DNA from: Bacillota bacterium
GTDB lineage: Bacteria > Bacillota > Limnochordia > DTU087
Assembly (NCBI GenBank): GCA_012510855.1
Contig: JAAZHE010000011.1
Location: forward strand, 1-50,097
Direction of reading: 5' to 3'
DNA length: 50,097 nucleotides
Below are positions 1-26,060 of this stretch, in pieces. The first letter of the stretch is position 1. Each line of letters opens with the position of its first letter. Position numbers and translations under genes: made by a program. The notes below the pieces were generated by a model. The model was not told where the DNA came from, did no database searches, and saw nothing but the letters and a program-made list of their open reading frames with translations.

Positions 1-381
1 CTGGTTGACCATTTGTATGTAATATCTAAGTCTAGCATACCCCTAACTAGGTCCGGCAGTGTTAGGTGATCGACCCCAAGAAAGAGAAGAGATATCTTTC
101 TTCTTTATGAAAAAAAACTTCACCAGATACAGAAGGAATACCAAGATCAGACCAGAAGTACTATTACTGGGTAAATACCGGCGGTGAAAAAATATCCACC
201 AAGAAGGAAATCCCAGTGGTTGGTTTTGATTTACCAGGAGGCAGCATCAAAAAACCGCCATGAAACCTGTTAACTGGTGGAGACTGCCCAGGCGTGGTAG
301 TTGGTACCGAGCCCGTAGGCTAGTCCCAAGGACTGGCCCGAAGTGACGAGGTGGTGGGTAATACCCGTGGCCAAGACAGTT

Positions 382-1212
382 ATGGAAAGACTTATAGAAG
401 AAAAATCGAAACTGCGCTCCTCTGAGGAAAAGGCAGCTGATTATATCATCGCCCATGCCAGGGAGGTTGTGAATCTGCCCATAACCGAATTGGCTGCTCG
501 GATAGGTGTGAGCGAAGCGACCATTGTGCGGATGTGCCAGAAGGTGGGCTACCGCGGTTTTCAGGAGCTCAAAATCAGTTTGGCTATGGAAATTGTGAGC
601 CCCATTCAAGCGGTACATGAAGAGATCAGCGAAGACGACGACATGGAAGCTGTCATGCAGAAAGTGGTCAACGCGTATATCACCGCCTTGAACAGCACGC
701 TCCAAGTGATGCCATCATCAGAACTGTCTCGGGCTGTGGACTATCTGTATGCCGCCCGTTCCATCCAGTTTTACGGAGTCGGGGGTTCAGGTCCCGTGGC
801 CCACGATGCAGCTCACAAGTTTATGAAAACCGGCAAGCCTGTGGTAGCCTATACCGATACCCACATGCAGGCCATGGCGGCAGCCCTGACAGAACCTGGG
901 GATGTGATTGTGGCCATTTCCCATTCCGGCAGCAGCCGGGATATGATTGATGCCCTGGCCATAGCCAAGTCCAGAGGAGTCACCACCATCGGTGTATGCC
1001 ACTATGCCCGGGCGCCTATAGATAAAGTATTGACTATCAAGCTGGGGACATCGTCCTACGAGACTCTCTATCGCATGGAAAGCACCTCATCCAGGATTGC
1101 TCAGCTTGCCATCATCGATGCGCTGTTTATAGGGGTTTGTCTCCGCGACCCAGATAAAGCAGTGAACAATATCCGCCTTACCAGGGAAGTCATCGCTCCA
1201 AAGCGCTTCTAG
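382..1212 (+). CDS. RpiR/MurR-family transcriptional regulator (HTH_6 + SIS domain)
   Basis: ORF 343..1212; the likely start is ATG 382 (MERLIEEK). It has an HTH segment 'ITELAARIGVSEATIVRMCQKVGYRGFQELK' and a SIS-type 'FYGVGGSG...VIVAISHSGSS'. It is the first gene of a co-directional sugar-acid operon. Confidence 0.85.
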   Translation: MERLIEEKSKLRSSEEKAADYIIAHAREVVNLPITELAARIGVSEATIVRMCQKVGYRGFQELKISLAMEIVSPIQAVHEEISEDDDMEAVMQKVVNAYITALNSTLQVMPSSELSRAVDYLYAARSIQFYGVGGSGPVAHDAAHKFMKTGKPVVAYTDTHMQAMAAALTEPGDVIVAISHSGSSRDMIDALAIAKSRGVTTIGVCHYARAPIDKVLTIKLGTSSYETLYRMESTSSRIAQLAIIDALFIGVCLRDPDKAVNNIRLTREVIAPKRF

Positions 1213-1275
1213 TCTAGGAGATGCAGCATCTGATGGATGGTGTATATAGCACCATCAGTTGTTAGGGGGACTCTC

Positions 1276-2244
1276 ATGAACAAGAAGATTCTAGTGACAC
1301 CAAGGACCTTTGGTAAAGCCGACCCGGTTCCGATGCAGATGCTAAAGGAAGCGGGTTGTGAAGTTATTTCCAATCCCTACGGACGCTTGTTGACTGAAGA
1401 CGAAATTTCTGAACTTATCCAAGAGGTGGACGGCATCATCGTTGGACTTGATCCTCTCAATGCCTCTGTCCTCAGCAAGGCTAAGCGCCTCAAGGCCATA
1501 TCTAAGTATGGGGTTGGTGTTAACAACATAGACTTGGAGTATGCCAGCCAGCGGGGGATAGTAGTGGCCAATACCCCGGGGGCTAACAGCCTGGCGGTCG
1601 CGGAACTAGCCATTGGACTGATGTTTGCGGTTTCTAGGCGGATTTGCGTTTCCGACCGGAACATCCGGGAGGGCAAGTGGCAGCAGTATCCCGGTCTGCA
1701 GATCAAGGGGAAGGTTATGGGCCTTGTGGGAACTGGACAGATCGGCAGACACACAGGGGAGCTGGCCCGGGGACTGGGCATGGAGGTAATCTGCTACGAC
1801 CTTCATCCCGATGAGGAATGGGCCGAATCGATAGGTGCTAGATATGTGCCGCTTCCGGAGATTATCACCGATGCAGATTTTATATCCATCCATGTGCCCT
1901 TAACCGATGATACTTTCCACCTGATCTCCAGCACAGAACTGGATCAGATGAAGCCATCGGCGGTGGTTATCAACACCGCCCGGGGTGGAATCATTGATGA
2001 AGAAGCTTTGTATGAAGCTCTAAAGGACGGCAAGATTGCAGGAGCAGGCCTCGATGTCTTCGAAACGGAACCTTTGACTGACTCGAAGTTGTTGGAGCTG
2101 GACAATGTAGTACTCACATCACACATCGGCGCTCACACCCGAGAAGCAACTGAAAACATGGGGAGACTCGCGGCAGCTAATCTGTTGGCAATACTGAGAG
2201 GAGAAATTCCTCAGTATACTGTAAATCAGATCCAAATCAAATAG
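1276..2244 (+). CDS. D-isomer-specific 2-hydroxyacid dehydrogenase (PGDH/GhrB-like)
   Basis: ORF 1237..2244; ATG 1276 follows RBS 'agggggA'. NAD-binding motif 'GLVGTGQIGRH' and catalytic region 'INTARGGIIDEEAL...GAGLDVFETEP...LTSHIGAHT' are typical of the family. Confidence 0.85.
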   Translation: MNKKILVTPRTFGKADPVPMQMLKEAGCEVISNPYGRLLTEDEISELIQEVDGIIVGLDPLNASVLSKAKRLKAISKYGVGVNNIDLEYASQRGIVVANTPGANSLAVAELAIGLMFAVSRRICVSDRNIREGKWQQYPGLQIKGKVMGLVGTGQIGRHTGELARGLGMEVICYDLHPDEEWAESIGARYVPLPEIITDADFISIHVPLTDDTFHLISSTELDQMKPSAVVINTARGGIIDEEALYEALKDGKIAGAGLDVFETEPLTDSKLLELDNVVLTSHIGAHTREATENMGRLAAANLLAILRGEIPQYTVNQIQIK

Positions 2245-2253
2245 CCGATAGGG

Positions 2254-3504
2254 GTGCTGAACATGGAAGTGCGAGCTAATGAGCTGCCCAAAGTCGTCAC
2301 TGAACTGGTAAGGGAAGCGAGAGTGGCAGATGTTCATACCCATCTGTACCCGCCCATGTGTAAGGAGCTGTTTTTGCGGGGCATAGATGACCTCTTGACC
2401 TACCACTACTTGCTGGTGGAAACCCTCCGCTATGGCAAAATTAAACCTAACGACTTCTTCGCCCTCAGCAAAGAAGAACAGGCCGATGAGGTGTGGAAGA
2501 CTCTGTTTGTGGAGCATTCGCCTGTCAGCGAGGCTTGCCGGGGGGTGCTCACTGTCTTGAAAGCTTACGGGGTAGACGCTGCTCCTGGCTCTTTGAATGA
2601 AATCCGAGCCTTTTTCAGGGCATTAAGTCCTGAGGAGCACGCTGATAGGGTCTTTGCTGCTGCCAATTTGGACTATGTGGTGATGACCAATGACGCCTTC
2701 GATCCCGTGGAAACAGGTTACTGGGGGCCGGATTTTATCAAGGACAAGCGTTTCCGGGCAGCCCTGAGGATCGACCCGTTGCTCAATACACCGGATGAGG
2801 CCATGGGATTTATGCGGGAAAAGGGCTACAACGCGGGCCCCGAGATGTCTGCAAAGACCGCGGCCGAAATGCGGAGGTTCTTAGGGGACAATGCCGACAG
2901 GATCCAGCCTGTGTACCTGGCGGCATCACTACCTCCTACCTTCCGGTGGAAAGACGGAACGGTAAGGAGCAAGATTATGGAAGAGGTAATTGTACCCTTC
3001 TGCAAAGAGCGGAACATACCCCTGGCGCTGATGATTGGGGTCAGAAAGCTGGTCAATCCCGGCATGCGCCTAGGCGGCGACAGCCTCGGCAAATGCTGCG
3101 TCGCGTCCCTGGAAGAGATGTGCCTTGAACATCCCGATATGCGGTTCTTGATTACGCTCCTTTCCCGAGAAAACCAGCATGAACTTTGTGTTGCAGCAAG
3201 GAAATTCCCCAATCTCAAGCTCTTTGGCTGCTGGTGGTTCTTGGACAACCCCAGTTTGGTTAAGGAAATAACCGAGATGCGGATGGAGATGTTGGGGGTA
3301 AGCTTCATTCCGCAGCACTCTGACGCCCGGGTTCTAGACCAGCTTATTTACAAATGGGCACACAGTAAAGAGATAATCGCCGATGTTCTCGTTGACAATT
3401 ATTCCAAGCTGCTCAAAACCGGCTGGAAACTGTCTCAGGAGGACATCAAGCGGGATATAGATTTGCTCTTCTCCGGCAATGTCAATGAAGCTTTGGGTCT
3501 ATAG
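2254..3504 (+). CDS. Uronate (glucuronate) isomerase-like amidohydrolase, divergent UxaC type
   Basis: N-terminal metal motif 'VADVHTHLYPP' (HxH) and 'FGCWWFLDNP' (the WWF motif of uronate isomerases). About 416 aa. The start is GTG 2254 or ATG 2263. The operon context (mannonate-oxidoreductase-type SDR, Eda) agrees. Confidence 0.7.
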   Translation: MLNMEVRANELPKVVTELVREARVADVHTHLYPPMCKELFLRGIDDLLTYHYLLVETLRYGKIKPNDFFALSKEEQADEVWKTLFVEHSPVSEACRGVLTVLKAYGVDAAPGSLNEIRAFFRALSPEEHADRVFAAANLDYVVMTNDAFDPVETGYWGPDFIKDKRFRAALRIDPLLNTPDEAMGFMREKGYNAGPEMSAKTAAEMRRFLGDNADRIQPVYLAASLPPTFRWKDGTVRSKIMEEVIVPFCKERNIPLALMIGVRKLVNPGMRLGGDSLGKCCVASLEEMCLEHPDMRFLITLLSRENQHELCVAARKFPNLKLFGCWWFLDNPSLVKEITEMRMEMLGVSFIPQHSDARVLDQLIYKWAHSKEIIADVLVDNYSKLLKTGWKLSQEDIKRDIDLLFSGNVNEALGL

Positions 3505-3525
3505 AGAGGAAGGAAGATCAGGACT

Positions 3526-4176
3526 ATGGGAAAAGCTGAACAACTTAAAGCAATTGCAGATTCCGGTGTCGTGGCAGTGATCAGGACAAATAATGCCGAC
3601 GAGCTCATCAATATCTGCAAAGCCATGGCGGAAGGCGGCGTTATGGGAGTAGAGATCACCATGACATCGCCGGGAGCAGTGGATGCCATTAAAGAGGCCT
3701 CCAAGGTGTTGGGCTCCAAGGCAATAATCGGGGCAGGCTCTGTCTTGGATGCCGAGACGGCGAGAGTCTGCATCCTGGCAGGTGCCGACTTCGTTGTCAG
3801 CCCGATTTTCGACCCAGCGATAGTAGAAATGTGCCACCGGTACAGCAAGATTGTGATTCCGGGAGCCTTTACGCCCACTGAGATCCTGCGGGCCTGGCAG
3901 GCCGGGGCAGATGTCGTCAAGGTCTTTCCGGCAACCTCCGTGGGCCCTTCCTACCTCAAGGATATTCTTGGGCCCATGCCCCAGGTCAAGCTGACTCCCA
4001 CCGGCGGCATTAATCTAGATAACCTAGGAGATTTCATTAAGGCCGGTGCTGTCTTTGTCGGAGCCGGATCGTCCTTGGTGAATAAGAAGCTTGTTGCGGA
4101 AGGCAGATGGGACGAGCTGGCGGAGCGGGCAGCTCAGTTTGTAGCTGCAGCCAGGGCAGCCCGGAATGCTGGATAA
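3526..4176 (+). CDS. eda: 2-dehydro-3-deoxy-phosphogluconate / 4-hydroxy-2-oxoglutarate aldolase
   Basis: Family-typical 'GVVAVIRT', 'GVMGVEITMTSPGA', 'FVVSPIFD', 'IPGAFTPTEI...GADVVKVFPA' (Schiff-base Lys region). RBS 'gaggaaggaag' lies upstream. Confidence 0.9.
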   Translation: MGKAEQLKAIADSGVVAVIRTNNADELINICKAMAEGGVMGVEITMTSPGAVDAIKEASKVLGSKAIIGAGSVLDAETARVCILAGADFVVSPIFDPAIVEMCHRYSKIVIPGAFTPTEILRAWQAGADVVKVFPATSVGPSYLKDILGPMPQVKLTPTGGINLDNLGDFIKAGAVFVGAGSSLVNKKLVAEGRWDELAERAAQFVAAARAARNAG

Positions 4177-4197
4177 AGCTTTGAAAGGAGCAGTTGT

Positions 4198-5016
4198 ATG
4201 GCGGATCTTTTTGATGTCAGCGGTAAGGTTGCAGTAGTCACCGGCGGCGGGGGTGTTCTCTGCAGCGAGATGGCTAGAGCCCTTGCCAGTCGGGGTGTCA
4301 AGGTAGCAGTACTGGACATCAACGAAGGGCAAGCTAAGGTGGTGGCCGATGAGATTAAGGCCAATGGCGGAGAAGCCATCGCCGTTGCTGTTGACGTTTT
4401 GAATAAGGCTTCCATCGAGGGGGCCCGGGACGTAGTCCTGGAGCACTTCGGGACTGTAGATATTCTCATCAACGGTGCCGGCGGCAACAAGCCTGAGGCA
4501 CCAGCCAGTGACACCATGTCCTTCTTCGATATCCCTGCCGATGCCATTCAGTGGGTGTTTAATCTCAATATTATCGGCACAATACTCCCTACCCAGGTAT
4601 TCGGCAAGGTCATGGCCGAAAAAGGAGAAGGAGTCGGCATCAATATGTCCTCCATGGCGGCCTTCAAGCCCCTAACCAGGACAGTGGCCTACTCTGCCGC
4701 TAAGGCTGCCGTCAGCAACTTCACCCAGTGGATGGCGGTGCATTTTGCCCAGAATTATTCTCCCAATATCCGGGTCAACGCACTGGCACCTGGCTTTTTC
4801 TTGACCAATCAGAATTACTACCTGCTGGTGGACAAGGAGACCGGTGAACCTACCCAGCGCGGTCATCAGATTATCAGCCATACTCCCATGGGTAGATACG
4901 GCGAACCACGGGATCTGATCGGCACGCTGCTGTGGCTGGTATCCGATGCCGCAAGCTTTGTCAACGGTGTAGTCGTTCCAGTGGATGGCGCATTCTCTGC
5001 CTATAGTGGAGTGTGA
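4198..5016 (+). CDS. SDR-family oxidoreductase, D-mannonate (fructuronate) oxidoreductase subtype
   Basis: 'GKVAVVTGGGGVLC' cofactor motif, 'NGAGGNKPEA', 'YSAAKAA' (YxxxK), 'APGFFLTNQNYYLL' and the C-terminal 'PVDGAFSAYSGV' resemble the SDR-type UxuB/YjmF subgroup as I recall it. Confidence 0.7.
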   Translation: MADLFDVSGKVAVVTGGGGVLCSEMARALASRGVKVAVLDINEGQAKVVADEIKANGGEAIAVAVDVLNKASIEGARDVVLEHFGTVDILINGAGGNKPEAPASDTMSFFDIPADAIQWVFNLNIIGTILPTQVFGKVMAEKGEGVGINMSSMAAFKPLTRTVAYSAAKAAVSNFTQWMAVHFAQNYSPNIRVNALAPGFFLTNQNYYLLVDKETGEPTQRGHQIISHTPMGRYGEPRDLIGTLLWLVSDAASFVNGVVVPVDGAFSAYSGV

Positions 5017-6473
5017 ACGAGTTGGTTGTAGCTAGTCTAGAAGTCAGTACATCCTCAGCTAAGTGTATTCTCTTTTCAATAAAAGACGGAGTAATCGCTG
5101 AAGTATCGGAGCGCTATGGGCCTGATGTTGCCGATGGCCCTACCCAGGACCCCCAGGGGGTAGTGGGTTGTGCCCTGAGCGTCCTGCGGCAGATGGTCCA
5201 AGCCGCGGATGAGCGGGGCCTCAAGATAGAAGCCATTGGCCTCACAGGGATTTGGCACAGTTTGCTGCTTCTGGATGACCAGCGGCAGCCTGTCCACCGG
5301 ATTAAAACATGGGTCGATCTTTCCGGGGCTGACCACGTGTCAGCCCTGCGACAGGATCGGGAATTGGTTGATAAGATGTACCATAATACGGGCTGCATGG
5401 TCAACGCAATCTACCCGGCCTGGAAGTGGCACTATTTGAGGACTTCCCAGCCTGAGCTGACAAATAAGACCAGGTTCATTGCTTCGCAAATGGAGTTTGT
5501 ATTTGAAGCCCTTACCGGAGACAGGGCCGTGTCCCGCTGTACAGCCTCGGGTTCAGGCTTTTTCAACATCAGCACACTGGACTGGGATGAAGATGTGCTG
5601 AGCCTTGTGGGACTGAGGAAAGACCAGTTTAGTCCCTTGGTAGAAGCTTTCCACACTGCCCCTCTGAGGGCGGAAATCGCAAGGCAAGTGGGACTGCCGT
5701 CAGGCATACCGGTGACTGTGGGCTGTGCCGACGGAGCAATGAATCAACTGGCTATCGGCGGTCTAGACACCAAGGCCATGTCCATGTCGGTGGGGACCAG
5801 CGGTGCCCTTAGGGCAGTGCACTTAGAGCCGAAGATCCCCAAGGAACCCTCCACTTGGTGTTATTATCTCACCAAGGGCCGGAGGATAGCCGGAGCCGCT
5901 GTCAATAACGGCACCAACTGCGTTGACTGGTTCCTCACCCTCCAGGAGGGAGAGCTCAAGAGTCAAGTTTATGATCAATACTCAAAGGGTATAGAACAAG
6001 TCAGGCGGGCGAAAGCTCCCATTTTCATGCCTTTCCTTTTCGGCGAACGAAGCCCAGGCTGGAATGAGCGAAGACCCGGCGGATTTGTGGATGTCAAGGC
6101 CTTCCACAACAAATACGACCTGTATTATGCAATCCTGGAAGGCATCCTGTTTACCATGCGGCAATGCTACGACATATTGGTGGAAGTCGGGGGCCGGCCG
6201 GAGGAAGTGTTGGTTTCCGGCGGCATTGTCAACTCGGCTCCCTGGATGCAGATGGCTGCAGATATCTTCCAGAGGGAAATCAAGGTAACCGCCACAACCA
6301 ACGAATCCACCGTGGGCGGAGCCCTGGTAGCTTTGGAGGCGGTGGGCGGCAGCGAGCAGGTAGCAGGCTACAAGCCGGGGATCGTGAAGTCATATAAGCC
6401 TGAGGCAGAGGCGGTGGAGCTTTACCAAGTCCGCTATCAAAGATACCTTGAGCTGTATAGAACGCTGGAATAG
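5013..6473 (+). CDS. FGGY-family carbohydrate kinase (gluconokinase-like)
   Basis: GTG 5013 overlaps the SDR stop (GTGA). N-terminal 'SLEVSTSSAKC' matches the D-x-G-T-S-x-K-like phosphate-1 region. The FGGY C-domain has 'GGIVNSAPWMQMAADIF'. 486 aa. Confidence 0.8.
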   Translation: MNELVVASLEVSTSSAKCILFSIKDGVIAEVSERYGPDVADGPTQDPQGVVGCALSVLRQMVQAADERGLKIEAIGLTGIWHSLLLLDDQRQPVHRIKTWVDLSGADHVSALRQDRELVDKMYHNTGCMVNAIYPAWKWHYLRTSQPELTNKTRFIASQMEFVFEALTGDRAVSRCTASGSGFFNISTLDWDEDVLSLVGLRKDQFSPLVEAFHTAPLRAEIARQVGLPSGIPVTVGCADGAMNQLAIGGLDTKAMSMSVGTSGALRAVHLEPKIPKEPSTWCYYLTKGRRIAGAAVNNGTNCVDWFLTLQEGELKSQVYDQYSKGIEQVRRAKAPIFMPFLFGERSPGWNERRPGGFVDVKAFHNKYDLYYAILEGILFTMRQCYDILVEVGGRPEEVLVSGGIVNSAPWMQMAADIFQREIKVTATTNESTVGGALVALEAVGGSEQVAGYKPGIVKSYKPEAEAVELYQVRYQRYLELYRTLE

Positions 6474-6483
6474 GAGGGGTTGT

Positions 6484-7722
6484 ATGGATAGGGCAGAGCT
6501 TCGCTCAAGATTAGAAGCCTGGCTGAACTCCTTGGACAAGAAACTGGAGAGGCTGCTTTTGCTCCCTCCTGATTATACTAGATTCAACTCCGGGGCAGGC
6601 CTAATCGTCCAAGAACTCTACGATATTCTGGGCGGTTCCGCGGAGATCGACATCATGCCGGCCTTGGGCTGCCATGAGCCTATGACCGATGCGGAGATTG
6701 AGACGATGTTCGGCACCAAGATACCCAAGGATCGCTTCATCCACCGCAACTGGCGGACTGATGTAGTGAAGCTAGGTGAAGTGCCGGCAGAATTCGTGCG
6801 GGAAGTTTCCGGTGGGAAGCTGGATTTTTCCATCGAGGTGGAAATCGACCCCAGGCTGCTCGACTCCAAGTACGATGTTATCATCTCCATCGGTCAGGTA
6901 GTTCCCCACGAGGTTGTGGGGATGGCCAACTACACCAAGAACATCCTGGTGGGCTGCGGTGGCAAGGGCATGATCGATAAGACCCATTTCCTCGGGGCTG
7001 TCAGCAACATGGAACAGCTGATGGGCCGTGACCACTCCTCTGTCCGGAAGGTGTTTGACTACGCAGAGGTGCATTTCCTCAAGGATTTACCCATTGAGTA
7101 TATCCTCACAGTGACCACCACCAAGGGTGACGTCACTACCATTGAGGGTCTGTTTTTGGGTAGGTCCCGGAAGAACTTCGAGCAGGCAGTTGCCCTCAGT
7201 CAGCAGAAAAACCTTGACCTACTTGATGAGCCTTTGGAGAAGGTTGTTGCCTACATCGAACCCGACCACTTTAAGAGCACATGGGTTGGCAATAAAGCTA
7301 TTTACCGCCTGCGGATGGCCATGGCCGATAACGGTGAATTACTAATCATCGCTCCCGGGGTGAGGCACTTCGGTGAGGATCCGCTGTTTGATGAGTTGAT
7401 TAGAAAATACGGGTATCGCGGTACGCCTTACGTCTTGGCTATGGTTGAGCAAAACATAGATCTCCAAGAGAATTTGTCCTCGGCAGCCCATCTAATCCAC
7501 GGTTCTTCAGAGGGGCGGTTTCGAATTGTATATGCTCCCGGCCACTTGACCCGGGAAGAAGTGGAAGGGGTGGGGTTTGAGTACAGGGACATCAACGAAG
7601 TTCTTAAAGTCTATGACCCCGCCAAACTGCAGGATGGGTTCAACACCGTGAACGGTGAGCACATCTTCTTTGTCAGCAACCCGGCACTGGGCCTTTGGGC
7701 GCTGAAGAAAAGATTCCAGTAG
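6484..7722 (+). CDS. LarA-family (lactate-racemase-like, DUF2088) putative nickel-pincer-dependent 2-hydroxyacid racemase/epimerase
   Basis: ATG 6484 follows RBS 'aggagggg'. 'PPDYTRF', 'GCHEP' and 'VVPHEVVGMANYTKNILVGCGGKGMIDKTH' reproduce the LarA D-x-T-R, His108, His174-(10)-Lys184-(16)-His200 pattern and spacing, aligned from memory to the L. plantarum enzyme. Confidence 0.7.
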   Translation: MDRAELRSRLEAWLNSLDKKLERLLLLPPDYTRFNSGAGLIVQELYDILGGSAEIDIMPALGCHEPMTDAEIETMFGTKIPKDRFIHRNWRTDVVKLGEVPAEFVREVSGGKLDFSIEVEIDPRLLDSKYDVIISIGQVVPHEVVGMANYTKNILVGCGGKGMIDKTHFLGAVSNMEQLMGRDHSSVRKVFDYAEVHFLKDLPIEYILTVTTTKGDVTTIEGLFLGRSRKNFEQAVALSQQKNLDLLDEPLEKVVAYIEPDHFKSTWVGNKAIYRLRMAMADNGELLIIAPGVRHFGEDPLFDELIRKYGYRGTPYVLAMVEQNIDLQENLSSAAHLIHGSSEGRFRIVYAPGHLTREEVEGVGFEYRDINEVLKVYDPAKLQDGFNTVNGEHIFFVSNPALGLWALKKRFQ

Positions 7723-7760: not shown

Positions 7761-7803
7761 AAAGGCAAAATCGTCTCGCGGCGGAGAGGATTTTGCCTTT
7801 CTT
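7761..7803 (+). terminator. Rho-independent terminator closing the 382-7722 operon
   Basis: The arms 'aaaggcaaaatcgtctc' and 'gagaggattttgccttt' form a 17-bp stem with one mismatch and a 6-nt loop. The stem ends in TTT and is followed by CTT. Confidence 0.75.
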
Positions 7804-7861: not shown

Positions 7862-9721
7862 ATGAAGCGCACACTTTGGGCCAGAAGCATTGGGGGCAGG
7901 CTCACCATTTCTATTGTCATAGCAATCCTAGTCTTGTTGGGGGCCTCTACTTGGGTTACCTATCTGCAGTTTCGTCACACCATTGAAGACTCGGCTTTGG
8001 ATGCAGCAGCCCATAGTGCCGAGAACAATGCCCTAATTCTCAATAATTGGCTGCTGGCGAAAGGTAATCAGCTGGCAGCTCTAGCGGAAACCACCGATAT
8101 GCAGGGCATGAAGTGGGACACCCAAATCCCCGTTTTGCGGAGGCTGGCGGAAAGTCAGCCGGACTTTGAAATGCTGTACATTGTTCAGCCCAACGGTTAT
8201 GGTATTTTATCTGCCGGGGGAAGCGAGTTTTTCGATGACCGAGAATACTTTCAACAGGCCATGGCTACAGGTCAAATTGTATACTCCGACCTAATAACCA
8301 ACAAAGTGACGGGGGAATTGGTGGTGGCCATCGCCCAGCCCATTTTCCGGGAGGGAGTGGCTCGCCCCGTAGGGCTCATCTGCGGAACCCTGTGGATGGA
8401 CTACCTGCAGAGTTTAGTGGAGAACATGAAAATTAATGACCATGGGCATGGCTGGATCTTAGACAACAGCGGTGTAACCATCGCCCATCCTGTCAAAGAG
8501 TATGTAGGGAACAGCGATATCTTCACAGATGACGATGAACTGCGAAGCGCAGTAGAGACTATGATGGGGAATACGGGAGCTATGAGATTCACCTCCCGCG
8601 GGGTGCGGAAGCTCGCCGCATATGCACCCATCGAAGCAACGGGCTGGACCGTGGTTATGCTGGCCGATGAGGAGGATGTCCTAGCTCCGGTTTACCGCCA
8701 GCGCACCATGAGCATTCTTGTCGCTGTAGTGGGAGTAGCTGCCGGTGCGGTGCTGGCATCGCTAATAGCTAGGGGTATAGTAAATCCCCTTATCACCTTG
8801 AGGGACGCAGCCCAAAAGCTAGCCACCGGCGATCTAACTGTCACGGTTGACGTAAAGCGGCGGGATGAACTGGGAGAGCTGGCATCAGCCTTTAACGCCA
8901 TGGCCGATGAGCTGCGGGGTATGGTAGGCAGAATAGACAGCTCAGCCCAGGGGATCGCTGCCTCCAGCCAAGAGCTGTCAGCCTCCACCGCGGATGTGGG
9001 GGCCTCAGTGGAGGAGGTAGCGGCGACTGCGAATCAGTTTGCCTCCACCGTTGAGACCATGGGCATGAAAGCCCGGGAGATGGCCCAATCTGCCGCCGAA
9101 ATCTCTGCCATGGCCGCTGACGGCGGTGAGGCTGTGACCAGGGCCATGAAAGAGATTGAGCAGCTGCAAAAGATCATCTCGGTCTTAGCTGGGGTTGTGG
9201 GAGGCCTGGGTCAGCGTTCAGCTGAAATCAGTCGAATAGTAGAGGTTATTACAAGCATAGCCGATCAGACCAATCTCCTAGCCCTAAATGCCGCCATTGA
9301 GGCAGCTAGGGCAGGGGAGTACGGCCGGGGCTTTGCGGTTGTCGCGGAAGAAGCCCGGAAACTGGCGGAGCAGTCAGCGCAAGCAGCTGCTGAAATCACC
9401 GCTCTAGTGGAGGATATCCGGAAAGAAACCGAGGGCGCCGTGGCCGAAATGGACAAGGGAGCCAAGGATGCAGAGAACACAGCCCAAGTGATCAACTACA
9501 GCAATGAGCTCCTGAGCCGCATCTTAGCCGCCATAAATCCCATCATAGAGCAAATTCAAGCCTTCGCCTCAGATATTCAGCAAATTGGAACCGGCAGCGA
9601 GCAGGTGGCGGCAGCAACCGAGGAGCAGTCCGCCTCTATCCAGGAACTGGCATCTGCTGCCCAGACCCTTAATAACATGGCGGATGAACTTAACAGCTTA
9701 GTGCAGGGGTTTACTGTGTGA
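7862..9721 (+). CDS. Methyl-accepting chemotaxis protein with periplasmic Cache-type sensor, HAMP and MA domains
   Basis: Two TM segments flank a ~260-aa extracellular domain. There is a HAMP region ('[18 protein letters not shown]'). The hallmark signalling hairpin is '[37 protein letters not shown]'. Confidence 0.9.
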
Positions 9722-9875: not shown

Positions 9876-10973
9876 TTGCAGAATTACAGCTTTTTTATGC
9901 CGACAAGGGTTATCCATGGAGAGAAAGAGCTAGTTAACCAAGCTGGACTCTTAAAACAGCTGGGGAACAAATGCCTTCTAGTAACCGGCAAGACGTCGGC
10001 TAGGGCGAGCGGTGCCTTAGATGATGCCGTGGAAGCCCTTACATCCCAGGGTATACGGTACGAACTGTTTGATCAGGTGGAGAACAATCCATCATTGGAG
10101 AACGTAGGTGCCGGCGGGGAAGCTGCCAGGCAGTTCAAGCCGGACTTTATCCTGGGCATCGGCGGCGGTTCTCCCCTTGATGCCAGTAAGGCTATTGCCG
10201 TATTAGCTGTCAATGACATAGATCCCGAGGAGCTTTACCGCAACCAATTTGACAACCGGCCGCTCCCCATAGTGGCTGTACCGACAACTGCCGGAACCGG
10301 CAGTGAAGTAACCCCTTACTCGGTTTTGACCACCCGGGAATTGGAAACCAAGAAATCCTTCTCGGTGCCGGAGCTGTTCCCCAGGCTGGCTTTCTTGGAC
10401 TGGCGGTATACTGAGAAGCTGCCGCTGACTATTACCCGGGATACCGCTTTGGATGCCCTTTCCCATTTGGTAGAGGGGTATCTATCCCAGCGGGCCACAG
10501 GGACCAGCGATTTATTTGCCGAACAGGGGATGAAGCTCTGGACCAAGTCCTTGAAGAGTCTGCGGGAGGGGGTGCTCCCTCCCGAAGACCGGGATCGCCT
10601 GTTGGTCGCATCTACTCTAGGGGGCATTACCATTTCCTATACCGGTACTACTTTAGTTCATGCCCTGGGTTACTCCCTAACGTATTATTACGACATACCC
10701 CACGGCCGGGCCAATGGCCTCTTGATGGCTGAGTACTTGCGCTACAATGCTGAACACGTACCCCAGCGGGTTACCAATATCCTCACCTGGCTGGGACTTA
10801 ACGATATAGAAGAGTTTGCCCAGATCATGACGGAATTGTCCGGTCCAATGGTGGAGCTCAGTGCTGAAGAGATTAAGCAATATGCAGCTAAGGCTGTTAC
10901 CACCAAAGCCGCACTTCAATCTCAAGGCGAAGTGACAGAAGAGGTTTTAGAGAGAATCCTACAAAACTCGTAA
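9876..10973 (+). CDS. Iron-containing (group III) alcohol dehydrogenase
   Basis: TTG 9876 lies 7 nt after 'ggaaaggag'. 'GIGGGSPLDASKAIA', 'AVPTTAGTGSEVT', 'ALDALSHLVEGY' and 'HALGY...PHGRANG' are typical Fe-ADH motifs. Confidence 0.85.
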   Translation: MQNYSFFMPTRVIHGEKELVNQAGLLKQLGNKCLLVTGKTSARASGALDDAVEALTSQGIRYELFDQVENNPSLENVGAGGEAARQFKPDFILGIGGGSPLDASKAIAVLAVNDIDPEELYRNQFDNRPLPIVAVPTTAGTGSEVTPYSVLTTRELETKKSFSVPELFPRLAFLDWRYTEKLPLTITRDTALDALSHLVEGYLSQRATGTSDLFAEQGMKLWTKSLKSLREGVLPPEDRDRLLVASTLGGITISYTGTTLVHALGYSLTYYYDIPHGRANGLLMAEYLRYNAEHVPQRVTNILTWLGLNDIEEFAQIMTELSGPMVELSAEEIKQYAAKAVTTKAALQSQGEVTEEVLERILQNS

Positions 10974-13282: not shown

Positions 13283-14908
<1,626 letters not shown>

Positions 14909-21463: not shown

Positions 21464-22492
21464 ATGGCGAAAGATAAACTACGGGTGGCCATTGCCGGCT
21501 GCGGCATGATTACACAGTTTCACCTGAGGGCTATTGAGCAGATTCCCGAGCTTGAAGTTGCTGGCGTATGGGACATTGCAAATCATCTGGCCGAAGCCGT
21601 TGCGGAACAGTGGAATGTAAAGGCTTATGGTTCTTACGAGGATATGATAGCCGACCCCCAGGTAGATATAATTGATATCTGCCTGCCGGCGGGGGTCCAT
21701 GCCCAGTACGGCTGCCAGGCAGCAGAGGCCGGCAAGCATGTGATTGTAGAAAAGCCCATCGATGTTACTAAAGAGGCTGGAGAGCGGCTAATTGCCGCGG
21801 CCGACGAGGCGGGGGTCCGGTTGGCGGTGATACTGCAGACCCGGTTCGCTCCGGCGGTAGGCAAGGTGAAGAAAGCCTTGGATGAGGGGGCTTTAGGGCG
21901 CCTCCTCTACGGCGAGGCTGCCTTTAAGTGGTACCGGGACGAAAGCTATTACACCTCTAAGCCTTGGAAGGGAACATGGGAATTCGACGGAGGCGGAGCC
22001 CTGCTGGTTCAAGCCATTCATACAATTGACCAGCTCCTGTGGTTCATGGGCAGCAAGGTAAAGAACATTACGGGTTTTGCCCGGACCGTGCTGCATCCCA
22101 TTGAAGTTGAAGACCTAGCAGCGGCAGTATTGGAGTTTGAATCGGGAGCCCTCGGGTACATAGTCGGTTCCACCGCGATGAAGCCGGGCTTTCCTGAGCG
22201 GATAGAGCTCTACGGCGAAAAGGGCTCCATTGCTTTAGAAGCTGGACGGGTAGTCCGCTGGCAGGTAGAGGGAATGAACGAGGAAGATTATCTCGATCCC
22301 ACACCCAGAGGTTCCGGTAGTTCAGATCCCGGAGGAATCCCCGTGGAAAACCATACTGCCCAGCTGCAGGCCATTGCCAGAGCCATCCTAGCCGGAGAGC
22401 AGCCGCCGGTAAGCGGCCCAGAAGCCATGGTGTCTTTGAACTGCATCTTGGACATCTACCGGCTGGGCGGAATGGAGCCTAAAAGGAAATAA
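21464..22492 (+). CDS. Gfo/Idh/MocA-family NAD(P)-dependent oxidoreductase
   Basis: Rossmann 'LRVAIAGCGMITQFH' and 'GKHVIVEKPI' (EKP motif), plus the C-terminal alpha/beta domain. RBS 'aaggagg'. Confidence 0.85.
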   Translation: MAKDKLRVAIAGCGMITQFHLRAIEQIPELEVAGVWDIANHLAEAVAEQWNVKAYGSYEDMIADPQVDIIDICLPAGVHAQYGCQAAEAGKHVIVEKPIDVTKEAGERLIAAADEAGVRLAVILQTRFAPAVGKVKKALDEGALGRLLYGEAAFKWYRDESYYTSKPWKGTWEFDGGGALLVQAIHTIDQLLWFMGSKVKNITGFARTVLHPIEVEDLAAAVLEFESGALGYIVGSTAMKPGFPERIELYGEKGSIALEAGRVVRWQVEGMNEEDYLDPTPRGSGSSDPGGIPVENHTAQLQAIARAILAGEQPPVSGPEAMVSLNCILDIYRLGGMEPKRK

Positions 22493-22552
22493 GCTAGGGC
22501 TCAGTCGGCAAGGTGTGGGTGTTCAAAAGAGCGCATAATCAGCAGGACGAAA

Positions 22553-22575
22553 AAGAGGGGAGGAGCTCCCCTCTT
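22553..22575. terminator. Bidirectional terminator hairpin
   Basis: 'aagaggggag-gag-ctcccctctt' is a 9-10-bp perfect stem. AAAA(A) lies upstream on +, which is a TTTTT run after the hairpin on -. So it is a canonical terminator for the minus-strand VOC remnant. Confidence 0.7.
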
Positions 22576-22580
22576 ACTGT

Positions 22581-22778
22581 TTATGATTCGCGGTTTTCCT
22601 CCCAGAGCTTGCCCCTGTCTTCGAAGCTTACTTCTTTGTGAATCTGAAGCAGCATCCAGTGATATCCAAAGGGATCGCTGAAAGAGGCATTGGAGACACC
22701 GTAATCCGCCATTACGGTGACCGGCCGTACTTGGGTGCAGCCAGCACCGATGGCTTTGGCAAAGGTCTCCTCCGAAAT
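22581..22778 (-). pseudogene. C-terminal remnant of a VOC/glyoxalase (PhnB-like) family gene
   Basis: The minus-strand translation 'ISEETFAKAIGAGCTQVRPVTVMADYGVSNASFSDPFGYHWMLLQIHKEVSFEDRGKLWEENRES*' has the family-typical '..DPFG..W.l' end. A TAA lies just upstream and no N-terminal half or start codon is present. Confidence 0.5.
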
Positions 22779-22916
22779 CCTAGACTTATGTTTTTAATGC
22801 GATATTTTGTGCAAATCAGCAGGGATTCCCAGAGACTGCGGGGAAGCAAAAAAGTGGAAGCGCACCAATGAAGATGATCAAACGGTCCCATCAGCCTATT
22901 TGAATATGTATTAACA

Positions 22917-23615
22917 ATGGGGTGGTTCTTTGTGAAGCGCTCGGAGATAAATGACCTTATGCGTAAGGCAGTTGAGTTTACGAAAAAGATGGGTTTTCAT
23001 CTGCCGCCCTTTGCCTTCTGTGGTCCAAAGGACTGGGAAACCAAGGGTAAGGAATATGATGAGATCAGTGATAACATGTTGGGTTGGGACATCACTGATT
23101 TCGGCAGCGGCGATTTTTACAAGGTAGGGCTATTGCTGTTTACAATTCGCAATGGCAATTTCAATGACAGTAGGTATACCAAACCCTATTGTGAGAAGCT
23201 GCTGATCGTGGAAGAGGAACAGATTACTCCTTTTCATTTTCATTGGAAGAAAATGGAAGATATCATCAACAGGGGCGGCGGCAACTTATTGATTCAGGTT
23301 TACAATTCTACCCAAGATGAAAAATTAGCTGACACCCCTGTTCAGATCTCCGTAGATTGCCGCAACTACACTGCACCAGCGGGAACCATCGTCCGATTGA
23401 CTCCAGGTGAAAGCATCACACTGGGTCCCGGAGTCTATCATCAGTTCTGGGGTGAAAAGGGAACCGGCACCGTTCTCGTGGGTGAAGTGTCCAAGGTCAA
23501 CGATGACCGAGTGGATAACAGGTTCTTGGACCAAATAGGTAGGTTCCCAGAGATCGAGGAAGATGAGGAACCCTTGTATCTTTTGTGCAACGAATACCCA
23601 CCGGCAAAGGACTGA
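22917..23615 (+). CDS. D-lyxose/D-mannose ketol-isomerase (cupin)
   Basis: It is closely collinear with D-lyxose isomerases as I recall them: 'KRSEINDL', 'HLPPFAF', 'LGWDITDFG', 'TPFHFHWKKMEDIINRGGGNL', 'GEVSKVNDDRVDNRF', 'LCNEY'. The start is ATG 22917 or GTG 22932. Confidence 0.85.
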   Translation: MGWFFVKRSEINDLMRKAVEFTKKMGFHLPPFAFCGPKDWETKGKEYDEISDNMLGWDITDFGSGDFYKVGLLLFTIRNGNFNDSRYTKPYCEKLLIVEEEQITPFHFHWKKMEDIINRGGGNLLIQVYNSTQDEKLADTPVQISVDCRNYTAPAGTIVRLTPGESITLGPGVYHQFWGEKGTGTVLVGEVSKVNDDRVDNRFLDQIGRFPEIEEDEEPLYLLCNEYPPAKD

Positions 23616-24132
23616 GTTACAGGAGCTGGTTGAAATTCATCTTTCTATCATGGAGGCAGGGTCCTATTGCCAGGATTCTGCCTTTGTCATACCTTCTTGG
23701 CCTCTAACCTTTGACCTGCTTCTACTCCGCCGCCCAGCTGTAAATGTCCCACCTCCAACAGGTCGCCTACATCTATGGTTCAGATTCCCACACAGTGCGT
23801 AAGCGGAAAGCTCTGCTCAAGATGGCATCCCTAAAGAGACAGCTTAAAAGGGTTTGTGTGACTCCGGTGGTAACACTGCGTTGCATCATGGCGATGCATT
23901 TTTTTGATCACCAAAGAATAGAATATAATGCCTGCGATGGCAATAAATAGAAAGCAAAGGAGGTGGGCAGAAGAAGCAAGATAGCCTACAAGCCAAACAT
24001 GACAAAACCCAATGAAAAACGCAACGGGACCCGTTTCGTAGAGAAATCAGTACCAACCAACGAGGATGCTCGCGTCGACATAAGTGTGCTTTCGTGGGAA
24101 ATTTCTGTAGACGCAGGAGGGAGGATTTCTCG

Positions 24133-26037: not shown

Positions 26038-26060
26038 GAGTAGATAAAGGGACTAAAAAA

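What the first reader, a model, noticed from the sequence alone, without database searches (positions are those of the whole stretch)
382..7722. Hexuronate-type operon with no dehydratase or KDG kinase, carrying a LarA-type epimerase and an FGGY kinase: possible mannonate-to-gluconate bypass
Seen in the sequence: seven tightly packed co-directional genes end at a strong terminator (7761-7803). They encode an RpiR regulator, a D-2-hydroxyacid dehydrogenase, a uronate-isomerase-like amidohydrolase, Eda aldolase, a mannonate-oxidoreductase-type SDR, an FGGY kinase and a LarA-family protein.

Established knowledge: the classical route is UxaC -> UxuB -> UxuA (mannonate dehydratase) -> KdgK (PfkB kinase) -> Eda. 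I find no UxuA/UxaA/enolase-type dehydratase and no PfkB kinase anywhere in the window. The LarA superfamily contains 2-hydroxyacid racemases and epimerases. To my recollection, one reported member epimerises gluconate at C2.

Inference: the route may be glucuronate -> fructuronate -> mannonate -> (C2 epimerisation) gluconate -> 6-phosphogluconate via the gluconokinase-like FGGY enzyme. Eda would then be fed by an Edd encoded elsewhere. The 2-hydroxyacid dehydrogenase (GhrB-like) could alternatively handle a 2-keto-aldonate intermediate.
Basis: partly seen in the sequence, partly recalled or inferred. Interest (0 to 1): 0.7.

Follow-up and report, generated by a model that had tools for sequence, protein, structure and literature searches.

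The report
Hexuronate operon with nickel-epimerase bypass
This is a real seven-gene sugar-acid operon from an uncultured Limnochordia-like bacterium. It most likely turns glucuronate into 6-phosphogluconate using a nickel-dependent epimerase and a sugar-acid kinase, a bypass already proposed and partly proven in Thermotoga and Lactobacillus, so it is a further example rather than a new pathway.

Summary
Seven tightly packed + strand genes (about 364..7722) end at a strong terminator. They encode an RpiR regulator, a D-2-hydroxyacid dehydrogenase, a BH0493-type uronate isomerase, Eda, a mannonate-oxidoreductase-type SDR, an FGGY kinase and a LarA homolog. No dehydratase, PfkB kinase, Edd, Gnd or LarBCE is encoded anywhere in the window.

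The LarA homolog is a clear member of Desguin's group 18. It passes NCBIfam NF052594 ("putative hexonate epimerase", 605 bits against a 500-bit cut-off) and keeps every catalytic, cofactor-binding and specificity residue.

In other genomes its homologs sit next to 6-phosphogluconate dehydrogenase (48 of 80 loci), the same SDR, sugar-acid kinases, UxaC, UxaE and pectate lyases. One orthologous operon reads RpiR-isomerase-SDR-FGGY-LarAH-Gnd-UxaE.

So the SDR-FGGY-LarAH triad is the known GntE-type route from fructuronate through mannonate to 6-phosphogluconate (T. maritima uxaD-gntE-gntK; L. suebicus).

Three things remain unresolved:
- whether epimerisation or phosphorylation comes first;
- what feeds Eda, which replaces Gnd in this lineage;
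- what the conserved 2-hydroxyacid dehydrogenase does.

Verdict: new member of a known kind, modest interest.

The parts
364..1212 (+). RpiR/MurR-family regulator (HTH_6 plus SIS). The start is GTG 364 or ATG 382. It is probably the operon's dedicated regulator, sensing a phosphorylated sugar acid.
   Evidence: Pfam HTH_6 at 4.4e-21 and SIS at 1e-23. Orthologs of 68-91% identity head the related operons L081, L084, L088, L091 and L095. The start position is inferred from relatives' gene calls and the ribosome-binding site.
1237..2244 (+). D-isomer-specific 2-hydroxyacid dehydrogenase of the PGDH/GyaR/GhrB type. Its specificity is unknown. My inference is a 2-keto-(6-phospho)gluconate reductase acting at C2.
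   Evidence: Pfam 2-Hacid_dh_C at 3.3e-62. All NCBIfam equivalogs score below their cut-offs. The best PDB hit is 1wwk, a phosphoglycerate dehydrogenase, at 3.3e-79; a probable 2-ketogluconate reductase (9m0t) scores 8.9e-59. Orthologs of 63-88% identity sit in L081, L084, L088 and L091. A 45% identical copy sits in a 2HADH-FGGY-LarAH-Gnd cluster in L004.
2254..3504 (+). BH0493-type uronate isomerase, a divergent member of the amidohydrolase superfamily. It would convert glucuronate to fructuronate, and galacturonate to tagaturonate.
   Evidence: phmmer gives 4.6e-131 to BH0493 (2pnk, 2q08, 3hk5...) over residues 11-410, with the HTH (HxH) motif aligned. There is no Pfam or NCBIfam hit. Homologs are named 'glucuronate isomerase' by NCBI.
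3526..4176 (+). Eda: KDPG/KHG aldolase.
   Evidence: Pfam Aldolase at 3.6e-45. TIGR01182 eda scores 195 bits against a 156-bit cut-off. It is conserved at 77-93% identity in L081, L084, L088 and L091. It is absent from the Gnd-type orthologous operon L095.
4198..5016 (+). SDR-type fructuronate reductase, also called D-mannonate oxidoreductase.
   Evidence: NF006132 D-mannonate oxidoreductase scores 385 bits against a 281-bit cut-off. The same cluster lies next to LarAH18 homologs in 25 of 80 other loci. It is 71-86% identical in related operons.
5013..6473 (+). FGGY-family sugar-acid kinase, either a gluconokinase or a mannonate kinase. It overlaps the SDR gene by 4 nt.
   Evidence: Pfam FGGY_N and FGGY_C. 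It scores 231 bits on gntK_FGGY and 234 bits on XylB, both below their cut-offs. The best PDB hit is the gluconate kinase 3gbt at 1.6e-52, against XylB at 1.5e-34. Homologs are annotated 'gluconokinase', 'FGGY family carbohydrate kinase' or 'hypothetical protein'. It is adjacent to LarAH18 in L001, L004, L081-L086, L091, L092 and L095.
6484..7722 (+). LarA homolog of group 18: a nickel-pincer-nucleotide-dependent hexonate 2-epimerase (GntE-type), acting on D-mannonate/D-gluconate or their 6-phosphates.
   Evidence: NF052594 scores 605 bits against a 500-bit cut-off. The best PDB hit is 4nar, T. maritima GntE2, at 8e-31. It is 57-61% identical to Desguin's group-18 Firmicute members. All signature residues are present: D30, R33, H64, H142, E143, V144, K152, H168, W267, N270, K271, S333, A334, A335, L337, I338, H339 and S341.
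7761..7803 (+). Intrinsic terminator that closes the operon.
   Evidence: The hairpin folds at -30 kcal/mol, z = -6.05, with 0 of 200 shuffles folding as well, and is followed by a U-rich tail.

Best explanation
The operon encodes a hexuronate catabolic route of the known GntE type.

1. The BH0493-type isomerase converts D-glucuronate to D-fructuronate.
2. The SDR reduces fructuronate to D-mannonate.
3. The adjacent FGGY kinase and group-18 LarA homolog together convert D-mannonate to 6-phosphogluconate.

For step 3 I commit to epimerase-first as the more likely order. The nickel-pincer enzyme would invert C2 of free D-mannonate to give D-gluconate, and the FGGY kinase would then phosphorylate C6.

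The RpiR protein, whose SIS domain typically binds sugar phosphates, is the dedicated regulator. It probably senses a phosphorylated intermediate.

In most lineages the product goes to Gnd, which is encoded next door. In this Limnochordia-like lineage Gnd is replaced in the operon by Eda plus a D-2-hydroxyacid dehydrogenase. Eda must be fed with KDPG made elsewhere, either from 6-phosphogluconate by an Edd or from mannonate by UxuA plus KdgK.

The dehydrogenase most plausibly reduces 2-keto-(6-phospho)gluconate to (6-phospho)gluconate. That 2-keto compound is the intermediate oxidation state of the epimerase reaction.

Shown here:
- gene content;
- family memberships;
- conservation of active-site residues;
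- conserved gene neighbourhoods.

Inferred:
- every substrate;
- the order of the two steps;
- the source of KDPG;
- the role of the dehydrogenase.
For: **Family membership.** The window protein passes the curated group-18 model and carries all catalytic, NPN-binding and GntE-type specificity residues (signature from PMC7583248 Dataset S2).

**Biochemical precedent.** Characterised members of the GntE branch epimerise D-mannonate/D-gluconate: GntE1, GntE2 and Phytophthora LarAH15 (PMC7583248, PMC11770544). P. infestans falls in group 18 in the 2020 dataset.

**Neighbours of LarAH18 homologs in 80 genome loci**:

| Neighbour | Loci |
|---|---|
| Gnd (median about 108 nt away; same strand in 42 of 43 pairs scored) | 48 |
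| The same SDR | 25 |
| A KDG-kinase-like PfkB | 23 |
| UxaC | 9 |
| UxaE | 5 |

**Related operons.**
- RpiR-BH0493like-SDR-FGGY-LarAH-Gnd-UxaE in L095/L096. Its five shared proteins are 54-71% identical to the window's.
- Gnd-LarAH-UxaE-UxaC with pectate lyases in L094.
- A minimal SDR-FGGY-LarAH module in L092.
- The identical seven-gene operon in L081 and L084.

**Known analogue.** T. maritima gnd-uxaR-uxaE-uxaD-gntE-gntK is the same SDR, LarA-homolog and FGGY triad (PMC3750489).

**Kinase.** The FGGY protein's nearest solved relative is a gluconate kinase.
Against: - No activity has been measured for any bacterial group-18 protein.
- The Km values of characterised GntEs for free mannonate are high, from 9 to 120 mM. 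That leaves room for a phosphorylated physiological substrate.
- L. suebicus extracts phosphorylate first and do not epimerise free mannonate.
- The FGGY kinase fails both the GntK and the XylB equivalog cut-offs.
- The window encodes no Gnd, Edd, UxuA, KdgK, LarB/C/E or obvious hexuronate transporter. The fate of 6-phosphogluconate, the source of KDPG and the cofactor supply all rest on unseen parts of the genome.
- The role proposed for the 2-hydroxyacid dehydrogenase is conjecture.
Confidence: 0.6

Rival explanations
1. Kinase-first order, as measured in Lactobacillus suebicus. The FGGY protein would be a D-mannonate kinase. The group-18 LarA homolog would be a 6-phosphomannonate 2-epimerase that hands 6-phosphogluconate directly to Gnd or Edd.
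For: - L. suebicus extracts convert mannonate only when ATP is present, via 6-phosphomannonate. The genes are unidentified, but a GntE homolog is expressed on galacturonate (PMC6978723).
- Gnd is the commonest immediate neighbour of LarAH18 homologs.
- The FGGY kinase lies outside the GntK equivalog.
- GntE Km values for free mannonate are in the millimolar to 100 mM range.
- RpiR/SIS regulators usually sense sugar phosphates.
Against: - All three characterised enzymes of the GntE branch act on free mannonate with kcat of 59-197 per second.
- Several LarAH18-Gnd loci (L088, L093, L094) have no dedicated kinase nearby. That fits use of an ordinary gluconokinase after epimerisation.
- Nobody has tested 6-phosphomannonate on any LarA homolog.
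Confidence: 0.27
2. The operon is a partial classical Ashwell operon (isomerase, reductase, Eda) whose dehydratase and KDG kinase are simply encoded elsewhere. The FGGY and LarA genes would be a minor side branch, or would act on a different aldonate such as L-gulonate, L-idonate or altronate.
For: - Eda is in the operon but nothing in the window makes KDPG.
- T. maritima has both routes, kdgAK-uxuBA and gntEK.
- Upstream of the orthologous operon in L084 lie Zn-ADH and GFO oxidoreductases, which could feed other aldonates.
- GntE1's native substrate is itself doubted by its authors.
Against: - SDR-FGGY-LarAH is the most conserved core, and it stands alone in L092.
- It is linked to Gnd, UxaC, UxaE and pectate lyases across phyla.
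- The C2 epimer of altronate is allonate. To my knowledge allonate has no known catabolic route.
Confidence: 0.1
3. Dehydratase-free outlet. The conserved 2-hydroxyacid dehydrogenase would oxidise 6-phosphogluconate to 2-keto-6-phosphogluconate. The Eda-type aldolase would split that into hydroxypyruvate plus glyceraldehyde-3-phosphate. The same dehydrogenase would then reduce hydroxypyruvate to D-glycerate.
For: - 2HADH and Eda are adjacent or nearly adjacent, and conserved, in five related operons that lack Edd, UxuA and KdgK.
- The dehydrogenase resembles phosphoglycerate dehydrogenases and glyoxylate/hydroxypyruvate reductases.
- The scheme is redox-neutral.
Against: - This is pure inference.
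- To my knowledge, KDPG aldolases need a 3-deoxy donor and accept hydroxypyruvate poorly.
- The 2HADH also occurs without Eda, next to Gnd, in L004.
- No glycerate kinase is in the operon.
Confidence: 0.03

Closest known systems
Thermotoga maritima pectin/galacturonate locus gnd-uxaR-uxaE-uxaD-gntE-gntK (Rodionova 2012, as cited; PMC3750489; GntE2 activity in PMC7583248)
   Same: It has the same triad: an SDR fructuronate reductase, a LarA-family 2-epimerase and an FGGY kinase. The same logic applies: mannonate is diverted to 6-phosphogluconate instead of being dehydrated.
   Different: - T. maritima uses LarAH group 20, which is only about 30% identical to the window protein.
- Its gene order is epimerase then kinase.
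- It has Gnd and UxaE in the operon and a GntR-type regulator, and relies on a classical UxaC.
- The window has group 18, a BH0493-type isomerase, an RpiR regulator, and Eda plus a 2-hydroxyacid dehydrogenase instead of Gnd.
Lactobacillus suebicus galacturonate pathway: mannonate kinase plus 6-phosphomannonate 2-epimerase (PMC6978723)
   Same: Hexuronate goes to mannonate and then to 6-phosphogluconate without UxuA or KdgK. Gluconokinase-like FGGY proteins and a GntE homolog are expressed.
   Different: The order, kinase first, was measured there in extracts, but the genes were never assigned. The outlet is Gnd and phosphoketolase. Nothing has been measured for the window.
Classical Ashwell isomerase pathway (UxaC-UxuB-UxuA-KdgK-Eda)
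   Same: The first two chemical steps, isomerisation and reduction to mannonate, and the last enzyme, Eda, are present.
   Different: There is no dehydratase and no PfkB KDG kinase in 50 kb. The isomerase is BH0493-type rather than Pfam UxaC. The reductase is an SDR rather than a long-chain UxuB.
BH0493 uronate isomerase of Bacillus halodurans (PDB 2q08, 3hk5 and others; Nguyen et al. 2008, not readable here)
   Same: Full-length similarity at 4.6e-131, with the HxH motif conserved.
   Different: From my memory of the abstract, BH0493 sits in a galacturonate operon. Its neighbourhood could not be checked with these tools.
Orthologous operon in uncultured Bacillota (L095/L096): RpiR-BH0493like-SDR-FGGY-LarAH18-Gnd-UxaE
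   Same: Five of the seven window genes appear in the same order, at 54-71% protein identity.
   Different: It carries Gnd and UxaE. It lacks Eda and the 2-hydroxyacid dehydrogenase.

Membership tests
LarA superfamily group 18 (GntE-type; NCBIfam NF052594 'nickel-dependent putative hexonate epimerase') | Scores above the curated whole-protein cut-off of the family model | tested here: met
   605 bits against a 500-bit cut-off. The next LarA-type model scores 50 bits.
LarA superfamily group 18 (GntE-type; NCBIfam NF052594 'nickel-dependent putative hexonate epimerase') | Catalytic and NPN-binding residues equivalent to LarA D72, R75, H108, H174, K184, H200 and K298 | tested here: met
   D30, R33, H64, H142, K152, H168 and K271 are present. 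They align with the corresponding residues of GntE2 (4nar).
LarA superfamily group 18 (GntE-type; NCBIfam NF052594 'nickel-dependent putative hexonate epimerase') | Group-18 specificity signature: E-V after the catalytic His, W-x-x-N-K in helix 11, and S-A-A-x-L-I-H-x-S in helix 14 | tested here: met
   The window has HEV at 142-144, WVGNK at 267-271 and SAAHLIHGS at 333-341. These match Dataset S2 of PMC7583248.
LarA superfamily group 18 (GntE-type; NCBIfam NF052594 'nickel-dependent putative hexonate epimerase') | NPN cofactor supply (larB, larC, larE) in the same genome | not testable with these tools
   None is encoded in the 50 kb window. The rest of the MAG is not available. Group 18 is not usually clustered with larBCE (Table S1).
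LarA superfamily group 18 (GntE-type; NCBIfam NF052594 'nickel-dependent putative hexonate epimerase') | C2 epimerisation of D-mannonate/D-gluconate | not testable with these tools
   This needs an enzyme assay. The precedent comes only from homologs (PMC7583248, PMC11770544).
BH0493-type uronate isomerase (amidohydrolase superfamily outlier) | Full-length homology to BH0493 with the HxH metal motif | tested here: met
   E = 4.6e-131 over residues 11-410. 'DVHTHLY' aligns with 'DMHTHLF'.
Classical UxaC glucuronate isomerase (Pfam PF02614) | Match to the UxaC profile | tested here: not met
   No Pfam or NCBIfam hit at E <= 0.001. A solved classical uronate isomerase (2q01) gives only E = 0.65.
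SDR-type D-mannonate oxidoreductase (NCBIfam NF006132) | Score above the curated cut-off | tested here: met
   385 bits against 281. The next family scores 188 bits.
FGGY gluconokinase GntK (TIGR01314) | Score above the equivalog cut-off | tested here: not met
   231 bits against 648.55. XylB scores 234 bits against 380. Only membership of the FGGY superfamily is established.
Eda KDPG/KHG aldolase (TIGR01182) | Score above the curated cut-off | tested here: met
   195 bits against 156.
Classical Ashwell hexuronate operon | Mannonate or altronate dehydratase and a PfkB KDG kinase | tested here: not met
   Absent from all scanned ORFs of the window. Their presence elsewhere in the genome cannot be tested.
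GntE-type hexuronate-to-6-phosphogluconate bypass (T. maritima type) | Adjacent fructuronate reductase, LarA-family epimerase and sugar-acid kinase | tested here: met
   The genes at 4198..5016, 5013..6473 and 6484..7722 are separated by -4 and 10 nt. The same triad occurs in L092, L095, L001 and L091.
GntE-type hexuronate-to-6-phosphogluconate bypass (T. maritima type) | 6-phosphogluconate dehydrogenase as the co-encoded outlet | tested here: not met
   No 6PGD domain is found in the window. Gnd is present in 48 of 80 homolog loci and in L088 and L095.
   No ILVD_EDD domain is found in the window. The genome collection returned no genome of this lineage among the best 80 loci; the best locus was 61% identical.

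The most novel reading that the evidence does not exclude
In this lineage the 6-phosphogluconate made by the bypass may leave through the conserved pair of 2-hydroxyacid dehydrogenase and Eda, without any dehydratase. The steps would be:
1. oxidation to 2-keto-6-phosphogluconate;
2. aldol cleavage to hydroxypyruvate plus glyceraldehyde-3-phosphate;
3. reduction of hydroxypyruvate to D-glycerate.

This would be a redox-neutral replacement for both Gnd and Edd. A less radical novel reading is listed as the first rival, at a probability of about 0.27. [quoted passage not shown]
Probability: 0.04. Interest if true: 0.75.

Novelty: new member of a known kind. Interest (0 to 1): 0.3.

Why it matters
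The GntE-type bypass links pectin and glucuronoxylan breakdown to 6-phosphogluconate. It has been proposed as a redox-neutral route for engineering galacturonate fermentation.

This operon and its relatives show that the bypass is widespread in uncultured anaerobic Bacillota. It usually runs on the uncharacterised bacterial group-18 LarA enzymes and a dedicated FGGY kinase subfamily.

They offer ready candidate genes for two open points:
- what the native substrate of group-18 enzymes is.

The Eda plus 2-hydroxyacid dehydrogenase version seen here is an undescribed operon layout. Its functional meaning is unknown.

Tried and rejected
1. **Genome-wide search for uxuA, kdgK, edd, gnd and larBCE.** This was not possible. 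The only genome-contig scan returned LarAH18 loci of at most 61% identity among the 80 it kept, so no genome of this lineage was recovered. The closest contigs (L081-L083) are syntenic with the window and add no new genes.
2. **RpiR operator.** The palindrome CCTGTTAACTGG at 266-277 recurs only in L082, whose upstream region looks near-identical to the window's over the stretch printed. Upstream regions of the other orthologous operons share no such motif. I dropped it as evidence.
3. **Riboswitch or other RNA element.** There are no Rfam hits at gathering threshold in the whole window.
4. **Promoter scan.** The number of sigma-70-like sites does not exceed that in shuffled sequence, and none lies upstream of rpiR.
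5. **Primary papers.** Nguyen 2008 (BH0493) and Rodionova 2012 (GntE proposal) are not held. Their content is cited second-hand or from memory.
6. **BH0493's own neighbourhood.** B. halodurans was not among the listed homologs.
7. **Kinase naming.** I considered filing the kinase as GntK. I rejected this because it fails the curated cut-off.
8. **Dehydrogenase naming.** I considered calling the 2HADH GhrB. I rejected this because it scores 208 bits against a 492-bit cut-off, and PGDH and GyaR models score higher.

Full report
**What is in the sequence.**

Window positions 343-7722 hold seven + strand ORFs. The gaps between them are 24, 9, 21, 21, -4 and 10 nt. A hairpin at 7761-7803 folds at -30 kcal/mol, with z = -6.05 and none of 200 shuffles folding as well. 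A U-rich tail follows it.

| Coordinates | Assignment | Evidence (unless noted) |
|---|---|---|
| 364/382..1212 | RpiR regulator | HTH_6 plus SIS |
| 1237..2244 | D-2-hydroxyacid dehydrogenase | 2-Hacid_dh; every NCBIfam equivalog below cut-off |
| 2254..3504 | Uronate isomerase, BH0493 type | no profile hit; 4.6e-131 to BH0493 |
| 3526..4176 | Eda | TIGR01182, 195 bits against 156 |
| 4198..5016 | SDR D-mannonate oxidoreductase | NF006132, 385 bits against 281 |
| 5013..6473 | FGGY kinase | gntK_FGGY 231 bits against 648; XylB 234 bits against 380 |
| 6484..7722 | LarA homolog, group 18 | NF052594, 605 bits against 500 |

The 416-aa protein at 2254..3504 matches BH0493 of Bacillus halodurans over residues 11-410, with the HxH motif aligned. 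BH0493 is the solved uronate isomerase at the edge of the amidohydrolase superfamily.

I ran Pfam scans on all the major non-overlapping ORFs of 110 aa or more and on the partial ORF at the window end. They show no mannonate or altronate dehydratase, enolase-superfamily protein, PfkB kinase, Edd, Gnd or LarB/C/E in the 50 kb. The only correction is that rpiR probably starts at GTG 364.

**Where it comes from.**

The LarA homolog is identical to a protein from an NCBI 'MAG: Firmicutes bacterium' contig of exactly 50,097 bp. Its nearest named relatives, at 88% identity, are Limnochordia MAGs.

**What the LarA homolog is.**

Desguin et al. 2020 (PMC7583248) split LarA homologs into 25 groups.
- Groups 19 (C. 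glutamicum GntE1) and 20 (T. maritima GntE2, PDB 4nar) were shown to interconvert D-mannonate and D-gluconate.
- Group 18 was predicted to be a hexonate epimerase on the basis of a shared signature.

The window protein is 57-61% identical to their group-18 Firmicute members and 45% identical to a diatom member. It carries every position of the group-18 signature: D30, R33, H64, H142, E143, V144, K152, H168, W267, N270, K271, S333, A334, A335, L337, I338, H339 and S341. These include the catalytic and nickel-pincer-binding residues, which align with GntE2.

A 2024 paper (PMC11770544) showed that a Phytophthora nicotianae enzyme is also a GntE. It has a Km of 9.4 mM for mannonate and a kcat of 111 per second. 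The paper also states that all eukaryotic LarA homologs lie in the GntE branch. P. infestans is in group 18 in the 2020 dataset. I therefore infer that group 18 now has a characterised member. Some NCBI records already name close homologs 'D-mannonate epimerase' (P0112).

**What the neighbours say.**

I fetched 80 genome loci encoding homologs with 50-61% identity in the best matching segment. I called and clustered their ORFs and identified the recurrent clusters with Pfam and NCBIfam. Many loci are truncated, so the counts below are lower bounds.

| Neighbour | Loci out of 80 |
|---|---|
| 6-phosphogluconate dehydrogenase (median about 108 nt away; same strand in 42 of 43 pairs scored) | 48 |
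| The window-type SDR | 25 |
| A KDG-kinase-like PfkB protein of about 360 aa | 23 |
| A PHP-domain phosphoesterase | 13 |
| UxaC | 9 |
| UxaE | 5 |
| The window-type FGGY kinase | 4 |
| The window-type 2-hydroxyacid dehydrogenase | 4 |

Individual operons are more telling.
- L095/L096 read RpiR-BH0493like-SDR-FGGY-LarAH-Gnd-UxaE. Their five shared proteins are 54-71% identical to the window's.
- L094 reads Gnd-LarAH-UxaE-UxaC, flanked by pectate lyases.
- L092 has only SDR-FGGY-LarAH.
- L004 reads 2HADH-FGGY-LarAH-Gnd.
- T. maritima has gnd-uxaR-uxaE-uxaD-gntE-gntK (PMC3750489).

The conserved core is therefore a fructuronate reductase, a LarA-type epimerase and a sugar-acid kinase. The usual inlet is a hexuronate isomerase with or without UxaE. 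The usual outlet is Gnd. This is the route Rodionova et al. proposed in 2012, as cited in PMC7583248 and PMC6978723.

**This lineage's version.**

The exact seven-gene operon recurs in relatives at 88% and 74% LarAH identity (L081-L085).
- A 71% relative has the same operon without the isomerase (L091).
- A widespread 66% relative reads TRAP transporter-SDR-GFO-RpiR-2HADH-Eda-SDR-LarAH-Gnd, with no kinase or isomerase (L088-L090).

The RpiR, 2HADH, Eda and SDR proteins are 63-93% identical across these operons. The lineage-specific feature is therefore a conserved 2HADH plus Eda, in place of or in addition to Gnd.

**Mechanism I consider most likely (confidence 0.6).**

1. Glucuronate is isomerised to fructuronate by the BH0493-type enzyme.
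2. Fructuronate is reduced to mannonate by the SDR.
3. Mannonate is epimerised at C2 to gluconate by the LarA homolog.
4. Gluconate is phosphorylated to 6-phosphogluconate by the FGGY kinase.

Steps 1 and 2 rest on ortholog-level or curated-model matches. Steps 3 and 4 rest on family membership, conserved residues and gene context.

I chose epimerase-first for three reasons.
- All characterised enzymes of the GntE branch work on free mannonate.
- The kinase's nearest solved relative is a gluconate kinase (3gbt at 1.6e-52, against XylB at 1.5e-34).
- Several LarAH-Gnd loci have no dedicated kinase.

This is inference, not demonstration.

**The main rival (confidence 0.27).**

The rival is the reverse order, as measured in L. 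suebicus extracts. There, mannonate is converted only when ATP is present, via 6-phosphomannonate. The genes are still unassigned (PMC6978723). Three observations keep this rival alive:
- the high Km of the characterised GntEs for free mannonate;
- the tight LarAH-Gnd adjacency;
- the kinase's failure to reach the GntK cut-off.

**What remains unexplained.**

*Source of KDPG.* Eda needs KDPG, and nothing in the window makes it. So is a uxuA-kdgK pair elsewhere, as in T. maritima, which has both routes. I could not test either, because the genome collection returned no genome of this lineage among the best 80 loci.

*Role of the dehydrogenase.* The 2-hydroxyacid dehydrogenase resembles short phosphoglycerate dehydrogenases and glyoxylate/hydroxypyruvate reductases, and more distantly a 2-ketogluconate reductase. 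D-specific enzymes of this family produce the 2R configuration found in gluconate. The gene also accompanies FGGY-LarAH-Gnd in a Tepidanaerobacteraceae MAG (L004). My guess is therefore a 2-keto-(6-phospho)gluconate reductase. I cannot exclude a more exotic dehydratase-free outlet through 2HADH plus Eda, but I rate it at a few percent.

*Regulator.* The RpiR regulator is orthologous between the Gnd-type and Eda-type operons (68% identity). Its effector is therefore more likely an intermediate they share, such as 6-phosphogluconate or 6-phosphomannonate, than KDPG. This too is inference.

**Comparison and novelty.**

Every protein belongs to a known family. The pathway logic has been published, with the proposal in 2012 and the enzyme activities in 2020 and 2024. 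NCBI has a curated model for exactly this epimerase group.

What is not in the literature I could search:
- any assay of a bacterial group-18 enzyme;
- the assignment of the dedicated FGGY subfamily;
- the Eda plus 2HADH operon layout.

I therefore class the finding as a new member of a known kind, with modest interest (0.3). It is a good, correctly read operon and a useful source of candidate genes for the L. suebicus activities. A specialist would not find it surprising.

Noticed in passing
window 2254..3504; homologs P0241-P0360: The BH0493-type uronate isomerase family gave 7,982 hits at E <= 1e-20 among the 8,000 candidates scored. It has no hit in Pfam-A or NCBIfam as held here. JGI calls its members 'hypothetical protein', while NCBI names some 'glucuronate isomerase'. 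This is an annotation gap for a biochemically characterised enzyme family.
   Followed up: partly
L022:2151-3017, L040:10508, L057:10493 and 10 other loci: A PHP-domain phosphoesterase of about 288 aa sits immediately after LarAH18 homologs in 13 of 80 loci, at a median distance of 6 nt. Its best NCBIfam matches, both below cut-off, are 3',5'-nucleoside bisphosphate phosphatase and RNase RNM. Gnd and a PfkB kinase usually follow it. Its role in a sugar-acid cluster is unexplained.
   Followed up: partly
L022:4545-5627 and 22 other loci: In 23 of 80 loci a divergent PfkB kinase of about 360 aa accompanies LarAH18 and Gnd in place of the FGGY kinase. It most resembles the kinase half of a KHG/KDPG-aldolase/sugar-kinase fusion, and KDG kinases. 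This is apparently a non-orthologous replacement of the sugar-acid kinase.
   Followed up: partly
window 7862..9721: A methyl-accepting chemotaxis protein with a dCache_1 sensor domain lies just after the operon terminator. It is also present after the orthologous operon in L084/L085. It is missing from L081-L083, where window 7707-9854 has no counterpart. It is a lineage-specific insertion and possibly a chemoreceptor for the operon's substrate.
   Followed up: partly
window 9876..10973: An iron-containing alcohol dehydrogenase, below the lactaldehyde-reductase and ErcA cut-offs, directly follows the LarA homolog in L081-L083, about 110 nt downstream. It lies further downstream in L084. It is conserved synteny of unknown relevance.
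   Followed up: no
window 266..277: The perfect palindrome CCTGTTAACTGG lies about 90-105 nt upstream of the rpiR start. It recurs only in L082, whose upstream region looks near-identical over the stretch I printed. It is not found in the other orthologous operons, so it is not usable as operator evidence.
   Followed up: yes
window 21464..33926 and 37035..44955: The rest of the window is rich in sugar-modifying genes of unclear pathway. They include a D-lyxose isomerase, four GFO/IDH/MocA oxidoreductases, four xylose-isomerase-like TIM barrels, an Opp-type ABC transporter (SBP_bac_5), and two GH51-type arabinofuranosidases at 13373..14908 and 34194..36356. There is also a NagA-like amidohydrolase, a glucosamine-6-phosphate-isomerase-like protein and a ROK regulator.
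   Followed up: no
L088-L090 (P0022 operon): A relative seen on more than 130 contigs carries both Eda and Gnd after LarAH18. Upstream lie a TRAP transporter, a second SDR and a GFO oxidoreductase, and there is no kinase or isomerase. This suggests a different entry substrate, an imported aldonate or unsaturated uronate, feeding the same epimerase.
   Followed up: no
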